From a virus: DNA of 15,929 bases. Made by a program: the position numbers and the translations under genes. The first letter of the stretch is position 1. The number at the start of each line of letters is the position of its first letter. Below are positions 4,002 to 13,889 of this stretch, one piece after another. Below the pieces are notes generated by a model, which searched no databases, had not been told where the DNA came from, and saw only the letters and a list, made by a program, of their open reading frames with translations. The stretch lies in the UHGV virus genome UHGV-1341775; one strand, 5' to 3'.

Positions 4002-4576
4002 TATACATTCTCCACTAATTCGAATTTCATCTTGCCAATCTGGGCGATCTTCCAATCGATATTTTCAGTTTTGAGAACAAATTCACCTTCTACGTTCTGA
4101 TACTTGATCACCTCACCCGCCAGGACGTTCTGACGCAAGTTAGGGAAGAGTTTCATTTCACCGCCTGATTTCACGTCTTCGGTGATCGTGTAGATTTTCT
4201 TGTGGTTCTCAAACTGGATGACAGTTCCCGCTTTCAGTGTTCCGGTGAAGTTGGAGATTCTCACCTTACGCCCACCGCGAGCAGTACCAGCAGCAGCCGT
4301 TACCATCTGGCGTACATCACCTGTATATTTTGAAAAGTAAGACAGTGGCACACTAAAAGGACGACCAAAAAGGTGACGTGCTACAAATTCTTTTACTTCG
4401 TTAATATCCTGAGCCATGTAATTCGCGGTAAATTCTGCTTCGTAAAAATGGATGCCAGTAAAGCGACGCTGGAACTTACCGGAGATAGATTGCGCCTTGA
4501 AGAAAGGTTGTTTTGATTTAAGAGTAAAATCTGTGATTTTAATATTCTTGGATTTGAACATAGAAAAAGCCCCCAT
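4001..4576 (-). CDS. Minor tail protein immediately after tape measure (distal tail protein / gpM-position candidate)
   Basis: ORF 4001..4597 (GTG start in the track) trimmed to the first ATG at 4576..4574, giving MGAFSMFKSKNIKITDF... (191 aa). An alternative ATG at 4561 lies just after a U-tract. The call rests on position between the tape measure and tip proteins; I do not recognise the family from the sequence. Confidence 0.45.
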   Translation of the reverse strand: MGAFSMFKSKNIKITDFTLKSKQPFFKAQSISGKFQRRFTGIHFYEAEFTANYMAQDINEVKEFVARHLFGRPFSVPLSYFSKYTGDVRQMVTAAAGTARGGRKVRISNFTGTLKAGTVIQFENHKKIYTITEDVKSGGEMKLFPNLRQNVLAGEVIKYQNVEGEFVLKTENIDWKIAQIGKMKFELVENV

Positions 4577-7816: not shown

Positions 7817-8287
7817 TTAGAGAGTCTGGAAAACAGCTTGTTTAACCGGAGCACCATCTACTACAAAGGTGAAGGTACGGCCTACTACCGCATCCTCACC
7901 ACCAGTCATGGTAGTTTTAGACAGGAAGCCGTTATAAGCGATATGTACACCAGATTTTTTCGTAGCATCGATGTAGTAAGCAATTTTAAGCTGTACGCGC
8001 TTACCGTCTTCGGTTGCTTTAATCAGTTTTTCGTGTACTTCGTTACCCGGCATGTAGTTGATCGAAAGTTCGATATCCGGTACAGACATACGACCAACCA
8101 GCTTGCGGTTATAAGCACCAGAGAAGTTTGGAACATCGATAGTAGAACGTTCCACACCAGTTTCCGGGAAAGCCGCACATTCTGGAATTTCCAGATAGGT
8201 TTCAGCATCAAGGTCTTTATTGTTTACGTCTTCTTGCAGAAACAGACCAACGAGGCCACCAGAGAAAATATCAAATTTAGTAGTCAT
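7817..8287 (-). CDS. Tail tube (major tail) protein, short paralog A
   Basis: 156-aa ORF with AAGGA 8 nt upstream of the ATG, followed by a strong terminator and then the chaperone pair and tape measure gene, which is the canonical major-tail-protein position. It shares motifs with the 277-aa protein at 13056..13889 (FDIFSGG vs LDIFTGS; ECAAFPETGVERSTIDV vs ENIAAFPTITESTDIQT; KATEDGKRVQLKIAYY vs KAVEDKTPLRFRMFYV). Confidence 0.55.
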   Translation of the reverse strand: MTTKFDIFSGGLVGLFLQEDVNNKDLDAETYLEIPECAAFPETGVERSTIDVPNFSGAYNRKLVGRMSVPDIELSINYMPGNEVHEKLIKATEDGKRVQLKIAYYIDATKKSGVHIAYNGFLSKTTMTGGEDAVVGRTFTFVVDGAPVKQAVFQTL

Positions 8288-8341
8288 TATTCTTTTCCTT
8301 CTATTTTAAACAATAGGGCACATACCCGTAATTCTATTTAT

Positions 8342-8644
8342 TTAGCGGTTGCTCAAACGTCTATAACGAAGATGAGCGACCCCCCTATTTGTGCTAACGG
8401 TAATTACCGCCCCTTGCGGTGCAATACAAGAATGGATCTGTCCCCAATCATAACCCTTATGACTTCCAGACACACAAAAGCCATGCAAAAGCAATTCTGA
8501 GTCACCACCACCACCACCAGAAGAATGAGCACCAAATGAAACCGTACCGAAAGCGTCGGCTGTCCAACCGTTAGGAATATCAAACCATCCCTGATTCGCT
8601 TTACCGGCTTTATTGTCTAAAACGCCATACACCCAATATCCCAT
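8342..8644 (-). CDS. Glycine-rich small protein, paralog 3 of a tandem triplet (function unknown)
   Basis: 100-aa ORF MGYWVYGVLDNKAGKANQGWFDIPNGWTADAFGTVSF...GGGGGD...AVITVS.... Its ATG overlaps the upstream stop (TAATG) and AGGAG lies about 9 nt upstream. Confidence 0.6.
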   Translation of the reverse strand: MGYWVYGVLDNKAGKANQGWFDIPNGWTADAFGTVSFGAHSSGGGGGDSELLLHGFCVSGSHKGYDWGQIHSCIAPQGAVITVSTNRGVAHLRYRRLSNR

Positions 8645-8949
8645 TAATGCATTCTCCTAAATTGGAAGTGGTTTAAACTTCCTTTACCAATGCTAAAACT
8701 GACAGTAGCGCCAACACCAACTAAAGAACTAGCTCCCCAACTTCCGGCTTTACCAGCGTGATGACCTGATTCGAGAGTACCGTTTACATATAATTCGGCG
8801 TCCAAGTCACCTCCACCGCCAACGGCTTCGGCATGAACAGACACAATACCGCATGAATCAGTAACCCAACCATTAGGGATACCAAACCAGCCGCCATTAG
8901 CATAAATGCTAATAGCATTAGCCATTCTTCCAGCAACCCAACCAGCCAT
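8644..8949 (-). CDS. Glycine-rich small protein, paralog 2 of a tandem triplet (function unknown)
   Basis: 101-aa ORF MAGWVAGRMANAISIYANGGWFGIPNGWVTDSCGIVSVH...GGGGD...ATVSFS.... It starts 2 nt after the upstream stop, with GGAG upstream. Confidence 0.6.
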   Translation of the reverse strand: MAGWVAGRMANAISIYANGGWFGIPNGWVTDSCGIVSVHAEAVGGGGDLDAELYVNGTLESGHHAGKAGSWGASSLVGVGATVSFSIGKGSLNHFQFRRMH

Positions 8950-8951
8950 AA

Positions 8952-9248
8952 TTAAAACTCCATAAATTTAAAGTATTCAATACCACCGACACCCCCATGA
9001 CCAAAGGTGACAGTACATCCAGCAGGAACAAACGCATTAACCGTAAATCCCCAATCCCCACCACCACGACGACGCGCGGCGACCACACCGTCAACGGAAA
9101 TATGCATATCGCCCCAACCATCATTAGCAGTATGCCGCAAAACGGCAACACCAGCACGTCCGGGAACATATCCATTAGGAATATCAAAAACATGCCATTT
9201 TACAGCATCTATTTTAGTGCCTTGTTCATTACTTACCCAATAGCCCAT
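8952..9248 (-). CDS. Glycine-rich small protein, paralog 1 of a tandem triplet (function unknown)
   Basis: 98-aa ORF MGYWVSNEQGTKIDAVKWHVFDIPNGYVPGRAGVAVLRH...RRGGGDWG...CTVTFGHGGVGG.... AAGGA lies 7 nt upstream of the ATG, and the gene sits 38 nt downstream of the fibre gene. Confidence 0.6.
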   Translation of the reverse strand: MGYWVSNEQGTKIDAVKWHVFDIPNGYVPGRAGVAVLRHTANDGWGDMHISVDGVVAARRRGGGDWGFTVNAFVPAGCTVTFGHGGVGGIEYFKFMEF

Positions 9249-9260
9249 TTAAAATCCTTA

Positions 9261-9278
9261 GCGGGGATTTCTCCCCGC
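9261..9278 (-). other. Short GNRA-loop hairpin between the fibre gene and the first glycine-rich paralog
   Basis: Minus-strand RNA reads GCGGGGA-GAAA-UCCCCGC, a 7-bp stem with a GAAA tetraloop, followed by UAAGGAUUUUAAAUG. The U-tract is weak, so this is more likely an RNA-stability or processing element than an efficient terminator. Confidence 0.35.
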
Positions 9279-9286
9279 CATTTAAA

Positions 9287-12200
9287 TTAACCAAATAATT
9301 TTGCTTCAATTGCAGCAAGACGATCGTGAAGAATTTTATTTTCTTCTTTCAGACGGTTATTTTCTTCTTTAAGAAGTGCAATTTCTTCGGTGTGTTCGTT
9401 GATTGCCGCAGTATTTAAACCAATAACACCGTTATAGTTCAAACGAAGAAGGTTTTCGCTATCTGGATCGCCTTCAACCAATTCCGGCAAAATAGCTTGA
9501 ACTTCCTGAGCAATCAAACCAGCATTAGGCTCCCACCGTTCGCTACCGTCTTCATTTAATCCTCGCTTTTGAAGGTACATATATCCGTTAATTTTTGAAA
9601 GTGTCTGTGATGCATTTTCAAATTTAACTAAATCCTTCTTCACGCGAATATCAGAACGGATATAAATGTCACGAACATATGTCGAATAGTTGTCATTCGC
9701 CTGGACTAGATGACCATGAGAGATAATAGCTTTATCAACTTCTGTCCATAAAGCACCGTGAGTTCCCCATAGTCCAGGATGTTCTTGATACATCGCACTC
9801 CATGATGCAATATGCTGTCCGTTTGCCATCAAGTTAATACGTCCATCACCACCATGAGCTAAACCAGTATCATTATCACCAATAGCAATTGATGCACCTC
9901 CCCAAACAGGAACCGTACCAACACCAAGTCTAGGAGTTTGAATAAAAGGGCTATAAAACATTCCGCTAGCATGAAACTCAAATACCCCTTGTGGATGGTT
10001 TTCGCCTGGTGTAGCTTCCGCAGAACCAACACGAATAACAGCTTGTCCCCATGCTCCCGGAGTACGACGTAAGCCAAAGTCAGCCTTAGTAGAATAACCT
10101 TGACCTGCGATCTGGCTATGTCCTTTAATAAGTGGATAATAGCTATCTTCTCCAACACTACCCTGATCAATAAAGATAGGTGCTTCTTCGCGCCACTGTC
10201 CATCCCATGCACCGGAATGATTAGCAACCCACTGTGTAGCGTTGATATAGATACGGTCTTTGCTAATACTAACATTATTAAAATTTTGTGGCGCAAGTGC
10301 TATCTCACCATTATCTGTGAGATGAACAGCCGCATTAGTCTTATAACTACAAAAAACTAATCCATTACCAGCACCACCTTTACCGATATACCAGTTATCT
10401 ACATCGTTACAAGTACCTTTCACATAAACAGCATCAGAATCAGTAGGAGCATTAACGGTAATAACGTTAGATTCACCATTGACTTTAAATCTTCCGAAGA
10501 ATGTATTTTGAATGGTGTTATCACCTTTACGCTCAAATTCTGCTAAAAATCCTTTTGAGTCACGAAGACTTAAAACGTTATTTCGACCTACATTGCTTGC
10601 CCCCCAATGAACAAATTCTAAGTAGTCCATTGATTGACGAGAACCAGCTTTAAAGAAAAGATTGTCCTCAAGACGAGTGCTACCATCAATTCCAAGATGC
10701 AAACAACGAGCGGTTTCAGTACCACCCAAATATAATCCACCGTCCGCAAAATCATAACTGAATGGTCTGCGATTATTCCAAGTACCAAAAGAATCTTTTA
10801 AATCGGTAGTAAGAATGTGGAAGCTAGAACCATCATTGCGTAATATCAAACCATAGTTACCGCCTCTAACAGCCAAACGAGCATTTTCAGATAATGCAAC
10901 TTCGCTATTCATTACAATTTTCTGGCCTCTACCGCCAGAAATCTGTAATTCACCGTTTTCGACCAAGTTTATCGAGTTTTGACCGTTATCGTTCCACCAA
11001 ATAAAATCTTTGGTCTGACCATCACCGAAACCAAACCAGCCATTACGAACATCTTGACCAGTGCGATAATCCATAAAATTAAAATGGCTTGATTCGTTTG
11101 GTCCTCGACGAATATCAATACCAGAATTTCCAGTGACACCGCCATCCAATGTTAATTTCTTGACATGTAACCCGGATGTTGCTGTCAGCAATAATTCCTG
11201 ATTTGTATCTTCGTATCCAGTAGCAAGACGATACTGGTTATCATCAACTGTCTCATGCCAGATAGTGGCAGGACCAGAACTACGGAAGCGACGCAACATC
11301 TTTTTGCTGTTAGTTTGTTGCACGTTCAAATGCTCAATGTCATATTGGCCTTGAGGGTTTCCAGCAAAATTTAACGTTCCACGGTTACTGAAACTGTTAA
11401 AGGAGTATATTGTATATGCATCATAGATATGATCAGCTACAGGTTTTTCGCCGACATATTCAGGTCGATCAAGTACAGTTAAATTAACATCGCTGGACGC
11501 TTGATATTCAACTAAAACAAGTGAAGTATGTTGGGAATATTGAGCATATATATCATAATTATCGCCGCTTGTATTAATGGCACAAAATTGGTTGTCATAT
11601 CCAGATATATGATGATATGCGACAATATTAATTCCTTTAGGGGCATTGTTGCCAGTCCTTATAACAAGTTCAATAATATTACATTGTCCCGTTTGGCCTA
11701 CGTTCCACCCATTACCACCAACCAATCTAATTTTAGCACTACGACCGTAGTTTTGTGGTAGATATACTGTAGCGATTTTAAACCATCCACTTTCAGAACC
11801 AAAATCGATGGTCTTCTGGAACATCCGGTCAATTTCTGCTTTCGAATATGCGCCAATTTCAGCCGGAGTAGGTTTATCACCTTCATGATACATGCGGTGA
11901 GAATATGCCAAATGTCCCAATTCATCATAGCCGTATGTTTTTACAGTCGGAACAACATTAGAACCATATGTAAAATCAAAACCGCGAGAATGATTTAGAC
12001 CGCTAGGATGTGGCACATGCAAAGCTAATGCCAAATGACCCGCCAGGTCATTCATGCGGAATGCACCAAAGTAGTCAAGATTGCGCGCATTTGGATCATC
12101 AAAATAGTTTGCGGTCTTAGATAGCAAATAGCCATCAGTGTAAGTGTTTACGTGCTTTTTGATGTACTTACCATCACTTGATCCATCGGCTGCATCAATA

Positions 12201-12982
12201 CGGCTTTCTAAGCGTGCCAATTCAGAATCAGTGTAAGACTTGTTATTGTCAACTTTGCTATGAATTGCTGTATTTTTGGCTTCAACATCACGGGTTAATG
12301 CTGCGACGTTATCCGCTGCCTCTTGCTTATTGGCTGCAATCACACCAGTAAGGTTATTGTAGGTGTCAGTTAACTGATTTTCCGCATAGGCTTTATTTGC
12401 TGCGATAGTCCGATCAGTTTCTGCCTTAATCAAATCAACCTTGTCATTGATTGCTTTGTCATTGCTTGCGATGGTTGCATCGGTACGGGATTTAATATCA
12501 TCAACTTTTTTATTGATGCGGGTGTCCAGTTCCTGAGTTGCTACAGCAGCCGCATTTTTATTAGCGTTGATGGTATCCGACAATTCAGCTTTAACACCAG
12601 CAAGATCGGAAGCAGCTTTATTTTTATTGGCCTCGATTGTCGCGTCGGTTTCGCGTTTAATTACATCAACTTTATTGTTAATTTCTGCGTGATTTGCTGC
12701 GATGGTTGCATCAGTAGTTTGTTTAATTTCATCTACTTTAGCGTGAATATTGCGGTCATTTACTGCAATTGTGCTATCCAGTTCTTGTTTGTTAGCATCA
12801 ACTTTAGATTCTAGTGCCGCGTGAGTTTCAGGAGAAACAGAGATTTGAACTACTTCATGATCTCGGTCTTTGGTAAAAATAACATGGTCTTTAAGGTTGA
12901 TTGCTACCTCACCGACCTGTAATTGTTCCGGCGTTGGTTTTTTGCCAGAAACATTAGTTCGTTTAAATTGGATCGACTGCAT
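9287..12982 (-). CDS. Side tail fibre / tailspike-like protein with C-terminal intramolecular chaperone (peptidase S74-type) domain
   Basis: 1231-aa ORF with GAGGTGA upstream of the ATG at 12982. Residues 60-255 form a repeat array (KVDxIKxxTDATIAAN units). The central region is rich in Gly/Trp/Asn, consistent with a beta-rich domain. The last 121 aa (about 9290..9652) match the self-cleaving chaperone domain pattern: predicted cleavage Ser|Asp in ...IYIRS|DIRVKKDL..., then AGLIAQEVQAILPELV, LNYNGVIGLNTAAINE and a terminal coiled coil (EENNRLKEENKILHDRLAAIEAKL). Confidence 0.75.
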   Translation of the reverse strand: MQSIQFKRTNVSGKKPTPEQLQVGEVAINLKDHVIFTKDRDHEVVQISVSPETHAALESKVDANKQELDSTIAVNDRNIHAKVDEIKQTTDATIAANHAEINNKVDVIKRETDATIEANKNKAASDLAGVKAELSDTINANKNAAAVATQELDTRINKKVDDIKSRTDATIASNDKAINDKVDLIKAETDRTIAANKAYAENQLTDTYNNLTGVIAANKQEAADNVAALTRDVEAKNTAIHSKVDNNKSYTDSELARLESRIDAADGSSDGKYIKKHVNTYTDGYLLSKTANYFDDPNARNLDYFGAFRMNDLAGHLALALHVPHPSGLNHSRGFDFTYGSNVVPTVKTYGYDELGHLAYSHRMYHEGDKPTPAEIGAYSKAEIDRMFQKTIDFGSESGWFKIATVYLPQNYGRSAKIRLVGGNGWNVGQTGQCNIIELVIRTGNNAPKGINIVAYHHISGYDNQFCAINTSGDNYDIYAQYSQHTSLVLVEYQASSDVNLTVLDRPEYVGEKPVADHIYDAYTIYSFNSFSNRGTLNFAGNPQGQYDIEHLNVQQTNSKKMLRRFRSSGPATIWHETVDDNQYRLATGYEDTNQELLLTATSGLHVKKLTLDGGVTGNSGIDIRRGPNESSHFNFMDYRTGQDVRNGWFGFGDGQTKDFIWWNDNGQNSINLVENGELQISGGRGQKIVMNSEVALSENARLAVRGGNYGLILRNDGSSFHILTTDLKDSFGTWNNRRPFSYDFADGGLYLGGTETARCLHLGIDGSTRLEDNLFFKAGSRQSMDYLEFVHWGASNVGRNNVLSLRDSKGFLAEFERKGDNTIQNTFFGRFKVNGESNVITVNAPTDSDAVYVKGTCNDVDNWYIGKGGAGNGLVFCSYKTNAAVHLTDNGEIALAPQNFNNVSISKDRIYINATQWVANHSGAWDGQWREEAPIFIDQGSVGEDSYYPLIKGHSQIAGQGYSTKADFGLRRTPGAWGQAVIRVGSAEATPGENHPQGVFEFHASGMFYSPFIQTPRLGVGTVPVWGGASIAIGDNDTGLAHGGDGRINLMANGQHIASWSAMYQEHPGLWGTHGALWTEVDKAIISHGHLVQANDNYSTYVRDIYIRSDIRVKKDLVKFENASQTLSKINGYMYLQKRGLNEDGSERWEPNAGLIAQEVQAILPELVEGDPDSENLLRLNYNGVIGLNTAAINEHTEEIALLKEENNRLKEENKILHDRLAAIEAKLFG
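12217..12805 (-). repeat. In-frame tandem coding repeats (about 21-aa units) in the N-terminal shaft of the side fibre
   Basis: Protein-level repeats TDATIAAN / TDATIEAN / SDTINAN / TDATIASN / TDRTIAAN spaced about 20-21 residues apart. Matching nucleotide repeats are visible, e.g. ttgcttgcgatggttgcatc at about 12463 and ttgctgcgatggttgcatc at about 12694. Confidence 0.55.
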
Positions 12983-13055: not shown

Positions 13056-13889
13056 TCAGTATTCCCCGAAGTCGATCCGGTCATGGATAGAAACGGCTTC
13101 AATCTCGGCTGGTGTCGGTTTTTCTTCCGTGGAATACACTTTCACCCATCCAGAATTACCATCTTTCTGGACTGTGCGAACTCGTAAACGAGGTGCACCG
13201 GAAGCGGTGCAAGTTAATTGCCATCCACCATCTTCATTAGGTTGAACGTGAATTAGTGAAGTATCAGCACTAAATGGATTAGATGCGCTCGATCCCTGAT
13301 AGGTCACAAAACGGTTGCCAGTCAGTGATTCACTATCAATCGGACCAGTGAATGGATGTACACCAGCACCCAAACCAAAATCACCTTGACGTAAGATCTT
13401 ACCTTCGGTTGCAATACCACGGTCGAGAATCCCACCATCAGGATCTAATTTAAATTCGATGGTAGTAACTTTGTTATCGCTACCACGGGTTTTGTGTGAT
13501 GTGACGTATGCATCAAAAATGACGTAGTATCCTGTGTTAGCAGCACTATAGCCAGAGTTCACAACATAGAACATACGGAAGCGTAAAGGTGTTTTATCCT
13601 CTACCGCTTTCATCAACATTGCTTGATGTTCATCATCCAGAACACGGTTTACTGTGAGTGTTGTTGATTCAAGTTTACGATAGCCAGCCAACTTACCAGT
13701 AACATCATGGTCATATTCTTCTAACGTCTGGATATCTGTAGATTCGGTTATCGTCGGGAATGCTGCGATGTTCTCGATAGGACTAAATGCAGGATCGAAA
13801 AAGTCCGGCTGGTTATCCACCATAGTAGACACGGAAACTTCAACATGCGACCCCGTGAAAATGTCTAAGTTATCTTGTGTAATATTCAT
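13056..13889 (-). CDS. Tail-tube-like protein B (major-tail-protein paralog) with C-terminal extension, possibly an Ig-like decoration domain
   Basis: 277-aa ORF with a strong Shine-Dalgarno motif (AAGGGG, TAAGGGGTAATAATG). The N-terminal 150 aa or so align by motif with the 156-aa tube protein at 7817..8287. The C-terminal extension of about 120 aa ends ...EEKPTPAEIEAVSIHDRIDFGEY, resembling a segment of the fibre (DKPTPAEIGAYSKAEIDRMFQKTIDFGSE). Confidence 0.5.
   Translation of the reverse strand: MNITQDNLDIFTGSHVEVSVSTMVDNQPDFFDPAFSPIENIAAFPTITESTDIQTLEEYDHDVTGKLAGYRKLESTTLTVNRVLDDEHQAMLMKAVEDKTPLRFRMFYVVNSGYSAANTGYYVIFDAYVTSHKTRGSDNKVTTIEFKLDPDGGILDRGIATEGKILRQGDFGLGAGVHPFTGPIDSESLTGNRFVTYQGSSASNPFSADTSLIHVQPNEDGGWQLTCTASGAPRLRVRTVQKDGNSGWVKVYSTEEKPTPAEIEAVSIHDRIDFGEY

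What the first reader, a model, noticed from the sequence alone, without database searches (positions are those of the whole stretch)
8342..9248. Tandem triplet of divergent glycine-rich ~100-aa paralogs wedged between the side-fibre gene and the tube gene
Three consecutive minus-strand ORFs of 98, 101 and 100 aa each have their own Shine-Dalgarno motif and are joined by a 2-nt gap and a TAATG overlap, which suggests coupled, roughly equimolar translation. They share an N-terminal M-[GA]-x-W-V, a G-W-[FH]-x-I-P-N-G-[WY] motif, a GGG(G)D run and a C-terminal T-V-[ST]-[FV]-S block, but are otherwise strongly diverged, so the duplication is old and all three copies are retained. There is no signal peptide or lipobox, which argues against a Cor/Llp-type exclusion lipoprotein. 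I do not recognise the family. Their position directly after a fibre that sheds its C-terminal chaperone suggests fibre-tip adhesins or accessory subunits, possibly a pseudo-threefold heterotrimer. Gly-rich motifs flanking variable segments recall T4-type gp38 adhesins, but this is analogy only. This is the best candidate for something undescribed in the window.
Basis: partly seen in the sequence, partly recalled or inferred. Interest (0 to 1): 0.75.

Follow-up and report, generated by a model that had tools for sequence, protein, structure and literature searches.

The report
Three-gene tail-fibre cap replacing gp38
Three small related genes that always follow a self-cleaving phage tail-fibre gene probably build a three-part knob on the fibre tip, taking the place of the known gp38 adhesin, and the module is swapped between very different phages.

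Summary
Three minus-strand ORFs (9248-8952, 8949-8644, 8644-8342; 98, 101 and 100 aa) are significant paralogs. All are under purifying selection and are translationally linked.

They match no Pfam, PHROG-with-function, NCBIfam or PADLOC family. The family is tiny: 33 clusters among 5.8 billion proteins.

Every copy found is a triplet in the same order, directly downstream of a tail fibre that ends in a self-cleaving Peptidase_S74 chaperone. This holds for:
- E. coli and Salmonella siphovirus prophages (the window is one);
- three T4-like Krischvirus phages;
- a T7-like podovirus fibre.

In Krischvirus the triplet sits exactly in the gp38 slot. Phage kvi has gp38 and no triplet. G2248 has the triplet and no gp38 anywhere. 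KFS-EC has a relocated gp38 and a decayed triplet. Identical mature fibre ends occur with either partner.

AlphaFold2 models of two paralogs give a short N-terminal helix plus a jelly-roll. Their best structural matches are mostly C1q/TNF trimers.

Best reading: a 1:1:1 heterotrimeric, C1q-like knob caps the processed fibre end and acts as the adhesin, as a non-homologous analogue of gp38. Virion incorporation, stoichiometry and receptor binding are inferred, not shown. I found no description of it in the literature searched.

The parts
9287..12982 (-). Side tail-fibre gene (1231 aa), the partner of the triplet. Residues 1-288 are specific to the prophage lineage. Residues ~289-860 resemble the Krischvirus gp37 shaft.
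   Evidence: ORF. Pfam Gp34_trimer, gp37_trimer (weak) and Peptidase_S74. Nucleotides 8326-12119 are 82-88% identical to Krischvirus gp37 regions.
9653..9904 (-). Distal tip of the mature fibre (residues ~1027-1110), homologous to the phage S16 gp37 tip on which gp38 docks. It ends ...RDIYIRS, the predicted new C-terminus after autocleavage.
   Evidence: phmmer against PDB 6F45_A, E 3e-42, with a 12-residue insertion. The cleavage-type motif YIRS|DIRVKK is located.
9290..9652 (-). Intramolecular chaperone (Peptidase_S74) domain of the fibre, residues 1111-1231, predicted to be shed.
   Evidence: Pfam PF13884, E 2.5e-11, residues 1110-1169. Aligned with the S16 gp37 C-terminus. Every triplet-associated fibre has this domain.
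9261..9278 (-). GC-rich hairpin (GCGGGGA-GAAA-TCCCCGC) between the fibre stop codon and the SD of gene A. Possibly an attenuator or an mRNA-stability element.
   Evidence: RNA fold -22.3 kcal/mol, z -4.5. Conserved in G2248, G37-3, L006 and L009. The loop is inverted in UPWr_E1. Hairpins of different sequence sit at the same place in L016 and L018, and before gp38 in kvi. Annotated as a terminator in G2248.
8952..9248 (-). Gene A (98 aa), the position-1 paralog. It ends ...FKFMEF. It forms a monophyletic clade across all loci.
8644..8949 (-). Gene B (101 aa), the position-2 paralog. Distant orthologs carry an N-terminal extension and are 105-129 aa long.
8342..8644 (-). Gene C (100 aa), the position-3 paralog. 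Its start overlaps the B stop codon (TAATG).
7817..8287 (-). Tail-tube-like gene (156 aa) that closes the transcription unit. It is not part of the mobile module: homology to Krischvirus stops at 8341.
   Evidence: Pfam Phage_TTP_12/11, weak hits. Homology boundary. Terminator-like site at 7808-7789.

Best explanation
A, B and C are three anciently triplicated genes. Each encodes a ~100-aa protein with a short N-terminal helix and a compact jelly-roll of the C1q/TNF type.

They form a portable 'cap' module for tail fibres that fold with a C-terminal intramolecular chaperone. The proposed mechanism is:
1. The fibre trimerises.
2. The chaperone cuts itself off at ...Y-I-R-S|D.
3. The three small proteins dock on the newly exposed trimeric end. 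Most likely there is one copy of each, forming a pseudo-threefold heterotrimer.
4. The heterotrimer forms the distal knob that contacts the host receptor.

This is the job done by the monomeric gp38 adhesin in T2/S16/RB49-type phages, but the protein family is unrelated.

**Shown here:** real paralogous genes; obligate linkage to S74 fibres; replacement of and exclusivity with gp38; the fold; and horizontal exchange between phage types.

**Inferred:** incorporation into the virion; 1:1:1 stoichiometry; which surface docks (the N-terminal helices, or the invariant FDIPNGW segment); and receptor binding.
For: **1. Linkage to S74 fibres.** In every context recovered, the family occurs as exactly three genes in the same order (98 aa; 101-125 aa; 98-110 aa), immediately downstream of a fibre ending in Peptidase_S74.
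- The window itself.
- Krischvirus G2248, G37-3 and UPWr_E1.
- Salmonella prophages.
- Nine IMG/VR prophage contigs.
- Metagenome contigs L016-L021.
- One of these fibres has a T7 gp17 N-terminal domain (Pfam E 5e-61) and is 60-63% identical to T3/T7 gp17.

**2. Orthology by position.** Identity averages 37-44% within a position and 23-30% between positions. Position 1 is monophyletic.

**3. The gp38 slot.** Phage kvi has a canonical 259-aa gp38 between gp37 and the holin region. G2248, G37-3 and UPWr_E1 have the triplet at that place.

**4. Either gp38 or the triplet.**
- The complete G2248 genome has no gp38 (tblastn, E<=1).
- The complete prophage has none.
- KFS-EC has a relocated gp38 (67% identical to kvi gp38). 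Its triplet is destroyed by a ~464-bp deletion that fuses A to C, plus a frameshift.

**5. Same docking platform.** The last ~45 mature residues of the L009 prophage fibre are identical to kvi gp37. L009 carries the triplet and kvi carries gp38. The window's own tip is homologous to the S16 gp37 tip that carries gp38 (E 3e-42).

**7. Host-range cassette behaviour.**
- In the prophage lineage the backbone is 92-100% identical, but A and B fall to 73-77% together with a swapped fibre tip and chaperone.
- dS of A and B is 0.65-1.3, against 0.04-0.2 for the adjacent tube gene.
- Each of the two A/B allele groups is shared at 99-100% identity between virulent Krischvirus phages and temperate prophages.

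**8. Expression.** The genes are translationally coupled and lie in the late structural operon. A conserved hairpin separates the fibre from the cap genes, as it does before gp38 in kvi.

**9. Docking parallel.** S16 gp38 docks through three helices, each with an apical Trp, into three symmetry-equivalent pockets (PMC6851490). Here there are three proteins, each with a predicted N-terminal helix carrying Trp4 in all enterobacterial members.
Against: - There are no direct data on virion incorporation, complex formation or receptor binding.
- A multimer prediction was not possible with the tools.
- The N-terminal Trp is not conserved in distant members (M, L, Q or F instead). The most conserved element is FDIPNGW, not the helix. 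The docking surface is therefore undetermined.
- Variability is scattered rather than concentrated in obvious distal loops, and dN/dS is below 1.
- The same triplet allele occurs with different fibre tip domains (L007 versus the window). Any co-adaptation must therefore be limited to the last few residues.
- The gp38-or-triplet pattern rests on few genomes: one complete triplet phage, one prophage, kvi and KFS-EC.
Confidence: 0.55

Rival explanations
1. Three alternative homotrimeric caps. Each paralog forms its own homotrimer (A3, B3, C3). Individual fibres then carry one of three knobs, giving the virion three receptor specificities as a bet-hedging strategy.
For: C1q/TNF-type domains commonly form homotrimers (my own knowledge of the superfamily). 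The three proteins share the invariant FDIPNGW segment, so each could use the same docking site. Roughly equimolar coupled translation is compatible with this reading.
Against: Independent alternative adhesins would be expected to vary in copy number. Instead, every intact locus across ~25-45% sequence identity and three phage morphotypes has exactly three genes in the same order, with position-specific features. A and B alleles always travel together. Adjacency alone could explain that last point.
Confidence: 0.15
2. Non-structural or transient assembly factors. The three proteins would help fold the fibre tip, shield it, or trigger or regulate release of the intramolecular chaperone, and would be absent from the mature virion. 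This resembles T4 gp38, Tfa proteins or 'transient chaperone caps'.
For: They are small proteins immediately downstream of a fibre gene, the classical position of fibre chaperones. T4 gp38, in the same slot, is a chaperone and not an adhesin (PMC6851490). Fibre chaperones shared across phage families are documented (abstract of PMC10579305). dN/dS is below 1 and there are no obvious hypervariable loops.
Against: The fibres already carry their own chaperone (S74). There is no similarity to any Tfa or gp38 chaperone family in Pfam, PHROGs or NCBIfam. The phages that lack the triplet carry the adhesin-type gp38, not a chaperone. The fold is that of terminal knobs on fibres and collagen-like stalks. 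A and B diverge like specificity determinants, with two allele groups against a near-identical backbone.
Confidence: 0.15
3. Unrelated cargo hitch-hiking next to the fibre gene, for example superinfection exclusion, receptor masking or an anti-defence function, with no physical link to the fibre.
For: Fibre-adjacent positions in phage genomes often hold morons and exclusion genes (my own knowledge). The family has no annotated function.
Against: There is no signal peptide, lipobox or TM segment, and no PADLOC hit. The genes are present in strictly virulent T4-like and T7-like phages and lie inside late structural operons. The module boundary shared between sipho- and myoviruses is the fibre tip plus the triplet, ending exactly at the stop codon of C. 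The triplet is mutually exclusive with gp38.
Confidence: 0.05

Closest known systems
gp38 adhesin of T2/T6/S16/RB49-type T-even phages (PDB 6F45; Dunne et al. 2018, summarised in PMC6851490)
   Same: It is separately encoded and lies immediately downstream of gp37. Its partner is a fibre that sheds a C-terminal S74-type chaperone. It occupies the identical genomic slot in Krischvirus. A GC hairpin precedes its SD. It is mutually exclusive with the triplet. Identical mature fibre ends pair with either partner. Docking is threefold: three Trp-tipped helices in gp38, and three N-terminal helices with Trp4 here.
   Different: There is no sequence or profile similarity (hhalign probability 0.4%). 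gp38 is one ~260-aa monomer with a polyglycine-II sandwich and hypervariable segments. Here there are three ~100-aa jelly-roll proteins. gp38 is confined to T-even relatives, whereas this module also serves siphovirus and T7-like fibres.
Globular head of complement C1q (gC1q) and the wider C1q/TNF superfamily
   Different: There is no sequence similarity and no Pfam C1q hit. The domain is shorter, ~85 residues against ~130. The stalk is a separate polypeptide rather than the same chain. Trimerisation here is inferred, not shown.
In-cis jelly-roll knobs of phage and virus fibres (phage C1q-domain and collagen-repeat tail-fibre proteins, BclA-like knobs, PRD1 P5)
   Different: Those knobs are the C-terminal domain of the fibre chain itself and are homotrimeric. 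Here the fibre's C-terminus is taken up by a chaperone that is cut off, so the knob must be supplied in trans, by three different genes.
Three consecutive paralogous tail proteins that form a heterotrimer in virophage DSLV2 (PMC12724248)
   Same: It is a precedent for three adjacent paralogous genes forming a heterotrimeric receptor-binding fibre structure (abstract).
   Different: Those proteins are gp37-like fibre proteins that form the fibre itself. They are not ~100-aa caps on a homotrimeric fibre, and the family and host system are unrelated.
Tail-fibre assembly chaperones that stay or transiently sit on the tip (T4 gp38, Mu/P2 Tfa, Alteromonas 'transient chaperone caps', PMC10579305)
   Same: They are small genes downstream of the fibre gene, and the modules are shared across phage families.
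   Different: No family match. The partner fibres here already have an intramolecular chaperone.

Membership tests
gp38 adhesin (T2/S16 type) | Gene immediately downstream of the distal long-tail-fibre gene whose product is C-terminally processed | tested here: met
   The triplet lies in the gp38 slot in G2248, G37-3 and UPWr_E1. The partner fibres have S74 and a YIRS|D site.
gp38 adhesin (T2/S16 type) | Conserved N-terminal attachment domain homologous to gp38 (three helices, MAVVG.PGW... signature) | tested here: not met
   hhalign of the family profile against kvi gp38 gives probability 0.4%. tblastn with gp38 finds nothing in the window, the prophage or G2248. Only a short G-W-[IV] resemblance is visible by eye.
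gp38 adhesin (T2/S16 type) | Glycine-rich motifs forming a polyglycine-II sandwich that frames hypervariable segments | tested here: not met
   The AF2 models are beta jelly-rolls with pLDDT 81-85. The glycine runs are single short loops, and in A the run is not positionally homologous.
C1q/TNF superfamily | Compact jelly-roll beta-sandwich fold | tested here: met
C1q/TNF superfamily | Sequence signature (Pfam C1q/TNF models) | tested here: not met
   No Pfam hit at E<=1 for A or B. C has only a meaningless 0.17 hit.
C1q/TNF superfamily | Assembly into a trimer around a threefold axis (a heterotrimer in C1q) | not testable with these tools
   Only monomer prediction was available. The trimer is inferred from the fixed three-gene architecture.
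Tail-fibre assembly chaperones (Tfa/Caudo_TAP, T4 gp38, gp57A) | Match to a chaperone family profile | tested here: not met
   No Pfam, PHROG or NCBIfam match.
Cor/Llp-type exclusion lipoproteins | Signal peptide with lipobox cysteine | tested here: not met
   The N-termini are MGYWVSNEQ, MAGWVAGRM and MGYWVYGVL. The maximum KD19 is <=1.06.
Peptidase_S74 intramolecular-chaperone fibres (the partner protein) | C-terminal S74 domain preceded by a Ser cleavage motif | tested here: met
   PF13884 E 2.5e-11 at residues 1110-1169. YIRS|DIRVKK is located. The region is homologous to the S16 gp37 C-terminus at E 3e-42.

The most novel reading that the evidence does not exclude
This would be a previously undescribed class of phage receptor-binding device: a C1q-like heterotrimer made from three tandem paralogous genes. 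It plugs in trans onto the end of any homotrimeric fibre that has shed its intramolecular chaperone. It would solve the cap-on-trimer problem with three chains where gp38 uses one. It would be a plug-and-play host-range module, exchanged almost unchanged (99-100% protein identity) between temperate siphovirus prophages and virulent T4-like phages, and also used by T7-like phages.
Probability: 0.45. Interest if true: 0.8.

Novelty: new variant of a known kind. Interest (0 to 1): 0.7.

Why it matters
The fibre tip decides which bacteria a phage can attack. For T-even phages, host-range prediction and engineering currently revolve around gp37 and gp38.

This module would be a third solution, and annotation pipelines do not see it: every copy is labelled 'hypothetical protein'. 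It is already present in phages proposed for therapy or biocontrol, such as UPWr_E1 and G2248-type Krischviruses, whose adhesin would otherwise be mis-assigned to gp37.

The module is small (~900 bp). It works with sipho-, myo- and podovirus fibres. It moves between prophages and lytic phages. That makes it a natural candidate cassette for retargeting fibres.

It would also be a bacterial-virus example of the C1q design principle, in which three paralogous chains form one head. Finally, it shows that prophages act as a reservoir of host-range alleles for virulent phages.

Tried and rejected
- **Profile libraries.** Pfam, PHROGs, NCBIfam and PADLOC gave nothing usable. A has one weak hit, to the C-terminal end of an unannotated 338-position PHROG (phrog_18834, E 3.5e-4). 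I did not follow it up.
- **PDB sequence search with the family profile.** It returned only 'Pizza' designer beta-propellers with no significant stretch.
- **Exhaustive representative search.** It returned four giant proteins that turned out to be ankyrin or NHL repeat proteins. Both this and the Pizza hits are accumulated short-motif artefacts, and I rejected them.
- **Homology to gp38.** Rejected by hhalign.
- **S16-like tip as the universal partner.** I first thought so, because of the 6F45 match. I rejected it because Salmonella, L007/8/13 and L016-21 fibres lack that domain yet carry the triplet. The common element is only the terminal ...[ND]-[VI]-Y-I-R-S|D strand plus the chaperone.
- **'Invariant Trp4'.** This holds only for enterobacterial members.
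- **Collection scans.** A genome-contig scan found no locus.
- **Composition.** The profile shows no foreign-DNA signature. The whole prophage is ~41-44% GC, so the direction of transfer cannot be read from it.
- **Literature.** Searches on Krischvirus/gp38, the BASEL collection, UPWr_E1, KFS-EC, C1q plus fibre, and heterotrimeric RBPs found no description of the triplet.
- **Multimer test.** I did not submit an artificial linked A-B-C chain to the structure predictor.
- **gp38 in UPWr_E1 and G37-3.** Neither appears among the 60 listed gp38 matches, but 298 records were not listed, so this is inconclusive.
Full report
**1. The observation**

The window contains three consecutive minus-strand ORFs at exactly the stated coordinates:
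- A, 9248..8952, 98 aa;
- B, 8949..8644, 101 aa;
- C, 8644..8342, 100 aa.

Each has a Shine-Dalgarno-like motif (AAGGA, GGAG, AGGAG). A and B are 2 nt apart. B and C overlap in TAATG.

The three proteins are true paralogs.
- Pairwise BLASTP E-values are 7e-8, 2e-6 and 1e-12.
- Alignment z-scores are 10-20 against shuffles.
- Identity is 26-40%.

They have no hydrophobic segment or lipobox and are 18-20% glycine. Against 11 orthologous loci, dN/dS is 0.07-0.58 for each gene. All three are therefore maintained as protein-coding genes in these frames.

The shared core is F-[DG]-I-P-N-G-[WY]. The GGG(G)D run is positionally homologous only in B and C.

**2. Where the window comes from**

The window is part of a ~36-kb siphovirus-type prophage. 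It is inserted in ycdX of E. coli next to a serine recombinase. It is present in 59 of 5,426 complete E. coli genomes.

The gene order is: capsid, three small genes, fibre (1231 aa), A-B-C, tube-like protein, two tail chaperones, tape measure, distal tail and tip proteins. The prophage backbone has no close relative among 50,697 phage genomes. Nucleotides 8326-12119 (the fibre from residue ~289 onward, plus the triplet) are 82-92% identical to the distal long-tail-fibre region of T4-like Krischvirus phages. The shared stretch ends exactly at the stop codon of C.

**3. The family**

None of the three proteins matches Pfam, NCBIfam or PADLOC. The only PHROG hit is weak and is to a family of unknown function.
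- A profile search of 5.8 billion protein clusters found 33 clusters. All are from E. coli, Shigella or Salmonella, and all are 'hypothetical'.
- An exhaustive HMMER scan of 1.84 billion representatives found 19 hits. Four of them are ankyrin or NHL repeat giants and are artefacts.
- Among cultured phages, only G2248, G37-3 and UPWr_E1 carry the triplet. KFS-EC carries a remnant.

**4. Invariant architecture**

Every context I could recover has exactly three family members in the same order, directly downstream of a fibre gene that ends in a Peptidase_S74 intramolecular chaperone.
- The three Krischvirus phages.
- Two Salmonella prophages. In one, the third gene was simply not called.
- Nine IMG/VR prophage contigs.
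- Five metagenome contigs with members only 25-45% identical.

One of the metagenome fibres has the T7 gp17 N-terminal domain (Pfam E 5e-61). It is 60-63% identical to T3/T7/phiA1122 gp17 over its first 350 residues. The module therefore serves sipho-, myo- and podovirus fibres.

Proteins are more similar within a position (37-44%) than between positions (23-30%). Position 1 is monophyletic in a neighbour-joining tree. The triplication therefore predates the known diversity of the family, and all three copies have been kept ever since.

**5. Relation to gp38**

In Krischvirus phage kvi, the gene between gp37 and the Dc5/holin genes is a canonical 259-aa gp38 'receptor-recognition protein'. In G2248, G37-3 and UPWr_E1, that slot holds the triplet.
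- The complete G2248 genome contains no gp38 homolog (tblastn, E<=1). Neither does the complete prophage.
- KFS-EC is the informative exception. Its triplet is wrecked by a ~464-bp deletion that fuses A to C, followed by a frameshift. It carries a gp38 gene elsewhere in its genome, 67% identical to kvi gp38. PMC12032242 notes such relocated gp38 genes in other Krischviruses.

So the pattern is gp38 or the triplet, never both intact.

The partner fibre ends are interchangeable. The last ~45 residues of the mature L009 prophage fibre are identical to those of kvi gp37. L009 has the triplet and kvi has gp38. All triplet-associated fibres share the terminal ...[ND]-[VI]-Y-I-R-S|D motif followed by the chaperone, while the domain just before it differs.

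The window's own tip (residues 1027-1110) is homologous to the tip of Salmonella phage S16 gp37. That is the very fragment crystallised with gp38 bound (PDB 6F45_A, E 3e-42).

A GC-rich hairpin lies between the fibre stop codon and the SD of the first cap gene. This holds both for the triplet and for kvi gp38.

**6. Structure**

AlphaFold2 models of B (pLDDT 85) and A (pLDDT 81) agree. Each has a low-confidence helix at residues 2-12, a conserved extended segment (FDIPNGW), and a confident six-to-eight-strand beta-sandwich.
- Against predicted viral structures, the hits include phage 'C1q domain-containing', collagen-repeat and tail-fibre proteins.
- There is no detectable relationship to gp38, whose receptor-binding domain is a polyglycine-II sandwich (PMC6851490).

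**7. Population behaviour**

Within the E. coli prophage lineage, structural genes are 92-100% identical at the protein level. A and B fall to 73-77% and C to ~88%, and the fibre tip and chaperone are replaced. Synonymous divergence of A and B (0.65-1.3) far exceeds that of the adjacent tube gene (0.04-0.2).

There are two A/B allele groups, 73-78% identical to each other. Each is shared between virulent Krischviruses and temperate prophages:
- G37-3 A is 99% identical to the prophage L013 A;
- G2248 B is 100% identical to the prophage L007 B.

This is the mosaic behaviour expected of a host-range cassette. It documents recent exchange between temperate and virulent phages.

The same allele group occurs with different tip domains (L007 against the window). 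Any fit between cap and fibre must therefore involve only the conserved terminal strand.

**8. Most likely mechanism**

The fibre trimerises with the help of its C-terminal chaperone, which then cleaves itself off after Ser1110. A, B and C then assemble on the exposed end as a distal knob that binds the receptor.

I favour one copy of each, forming a pseudo-threefold C1q-like heterotrimer. The reasons are the strict three-gene architecture, the position-specific conservation, the translational coupling and the co-inheritance of A and B alleles.

A suggestive parallel exists. S16 gp38 attaches through three helices, each presenting a tryptophan to one of three symmetry-equivalent pockets of gp37 (PMC6851490). 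Here, three separate proteins each have an N-terminal helix with Trp4.

That Trp is replaced by M, L, Q or F in distant members. The invariant FDIPNGW segment is an equally good candidate docking surface. I therefore leave the contact surface open.

I put ~0.65-0.7 on 'virion-bound fibre-tip cap or adhesin'. I put ~0.45-0.5 on the specific 1:1:1 heterotrimer.

**9. Rivals**

- Three alternative homotrimeric caps, as bet-hedging. This is disfavoured by the invariant copy number and order.
- Transient assembly factors or chaperones. This is disfavoured because the fibres already carry their own chaperone, because the alternative gene in sister phages is the adhesin-type gp38, and because the fold is that of terminal knobs.
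- Unrelated cargo such as exclusion or anti-defence genes. This is disfavoured by the lack of export signals, the presence in virulent phages, the location in a late operon and the module boundaries.

**10. Novelty**

The general kind is known from gp38: a separately encoded adhesin that caps a processed fibre. A heterotrimer from three consecutive paralogous tail genes has a precedent in a virophage (PMC12724248).

This family, its fold, its three-chain design and its cross-morphotype distribution are not described in any library or paper I could search. I class it as a new variant of a known kind. The function is inferred from comparative evidence only.

Noticed in passing
window 9261-9278 (also L001 6021-6042, L030, L031, L009, L006, L016, L018, L004 ~4527-4545): A stable GC hairpin sits between the fibre stop codon and the SD of the first cap gene. 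The stem is conserved. The loop is inverted in UPWr_E1. Hairpins of different sequence occupy the same place in distant loci, and one precedes gp38 in kvi. It could attenuate transcription or stabilise mRNA to set the fibre:cap ratio.
   Followed up: partly
L024 48142-48918 (KFS-EC record 153141-153917) and L002 6049-6540: Krischvirus KFS-EC carries a gp38 gene, annotated 'hypothetical', far from the fibre operon. In the normal slot it has a decayed A-C fusion remnant of the triplet. This looks like a natural replacement event.
   Followed up: yes
window 8326-12119 versus the rest of the window: Only the fibre (from residue ~289) plus the triplet is shared with T4-like phages. The fibre's first 288 residues are a coiled-coil region with apolipoprotein-like repeats and are specific to the prophage lineage. 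The fibre is therefore a sipho-anchor / myovirus-shaft / variable-tip chimera.
   Followed up: partly
window 13056-13889 and 7817-8287: There are two tube-like genes. The 277-aa ORF upstream of the fibre has a very weak Phage_tail_2 hit (E 0.15). The 156-aa ORF downstream has weak lambda-TTP hits. The fibre-plus-triplet cassette lies between them, an unusual place for a side-fibre gene.
   Followed up: no
L003 (E. coli CUVET21-37, 2793322-2829390): The prophage (~36 kb, ~41-44% GC, well below E. coli) is integrated in ycdX beside a serine recombinase. It encodes a 669-aa protease-capsid fusion. It is present in 59 of 5,426 complete E. coli genomes and has no close relative among sequenced phages.
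   Followed up: partly
window 8952-9248 (protein A residues 39-91): There is a weak match (E 3.5e-4) to the C-terminal end (positions 281-332 of 338) of PHROG 18834, a family of unknown function. It may be a fibre-like protein carrying the same knob in cis.
   Followed up: no
window 9653-9904 (fibre residues ~1060-1072): Compared with the S16 gp37 tip, the window fibre has a 12-residue insertion (MYQEHPGLWGTH) in the domain that carries gp38 in S16. G2248 and UPWr_E1 have the same insertion.
   Followed up: no
P0027, P0032 (E. coli assemblies): Some database proteins fuse the first 9 residues of the Krischvirus Dc5-like ORF (MVYNIVIGA) to the middle of protein C. This suggests further rearranged or decayed copies of the module in E. 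coli-associated sequences.
   Followed up: no
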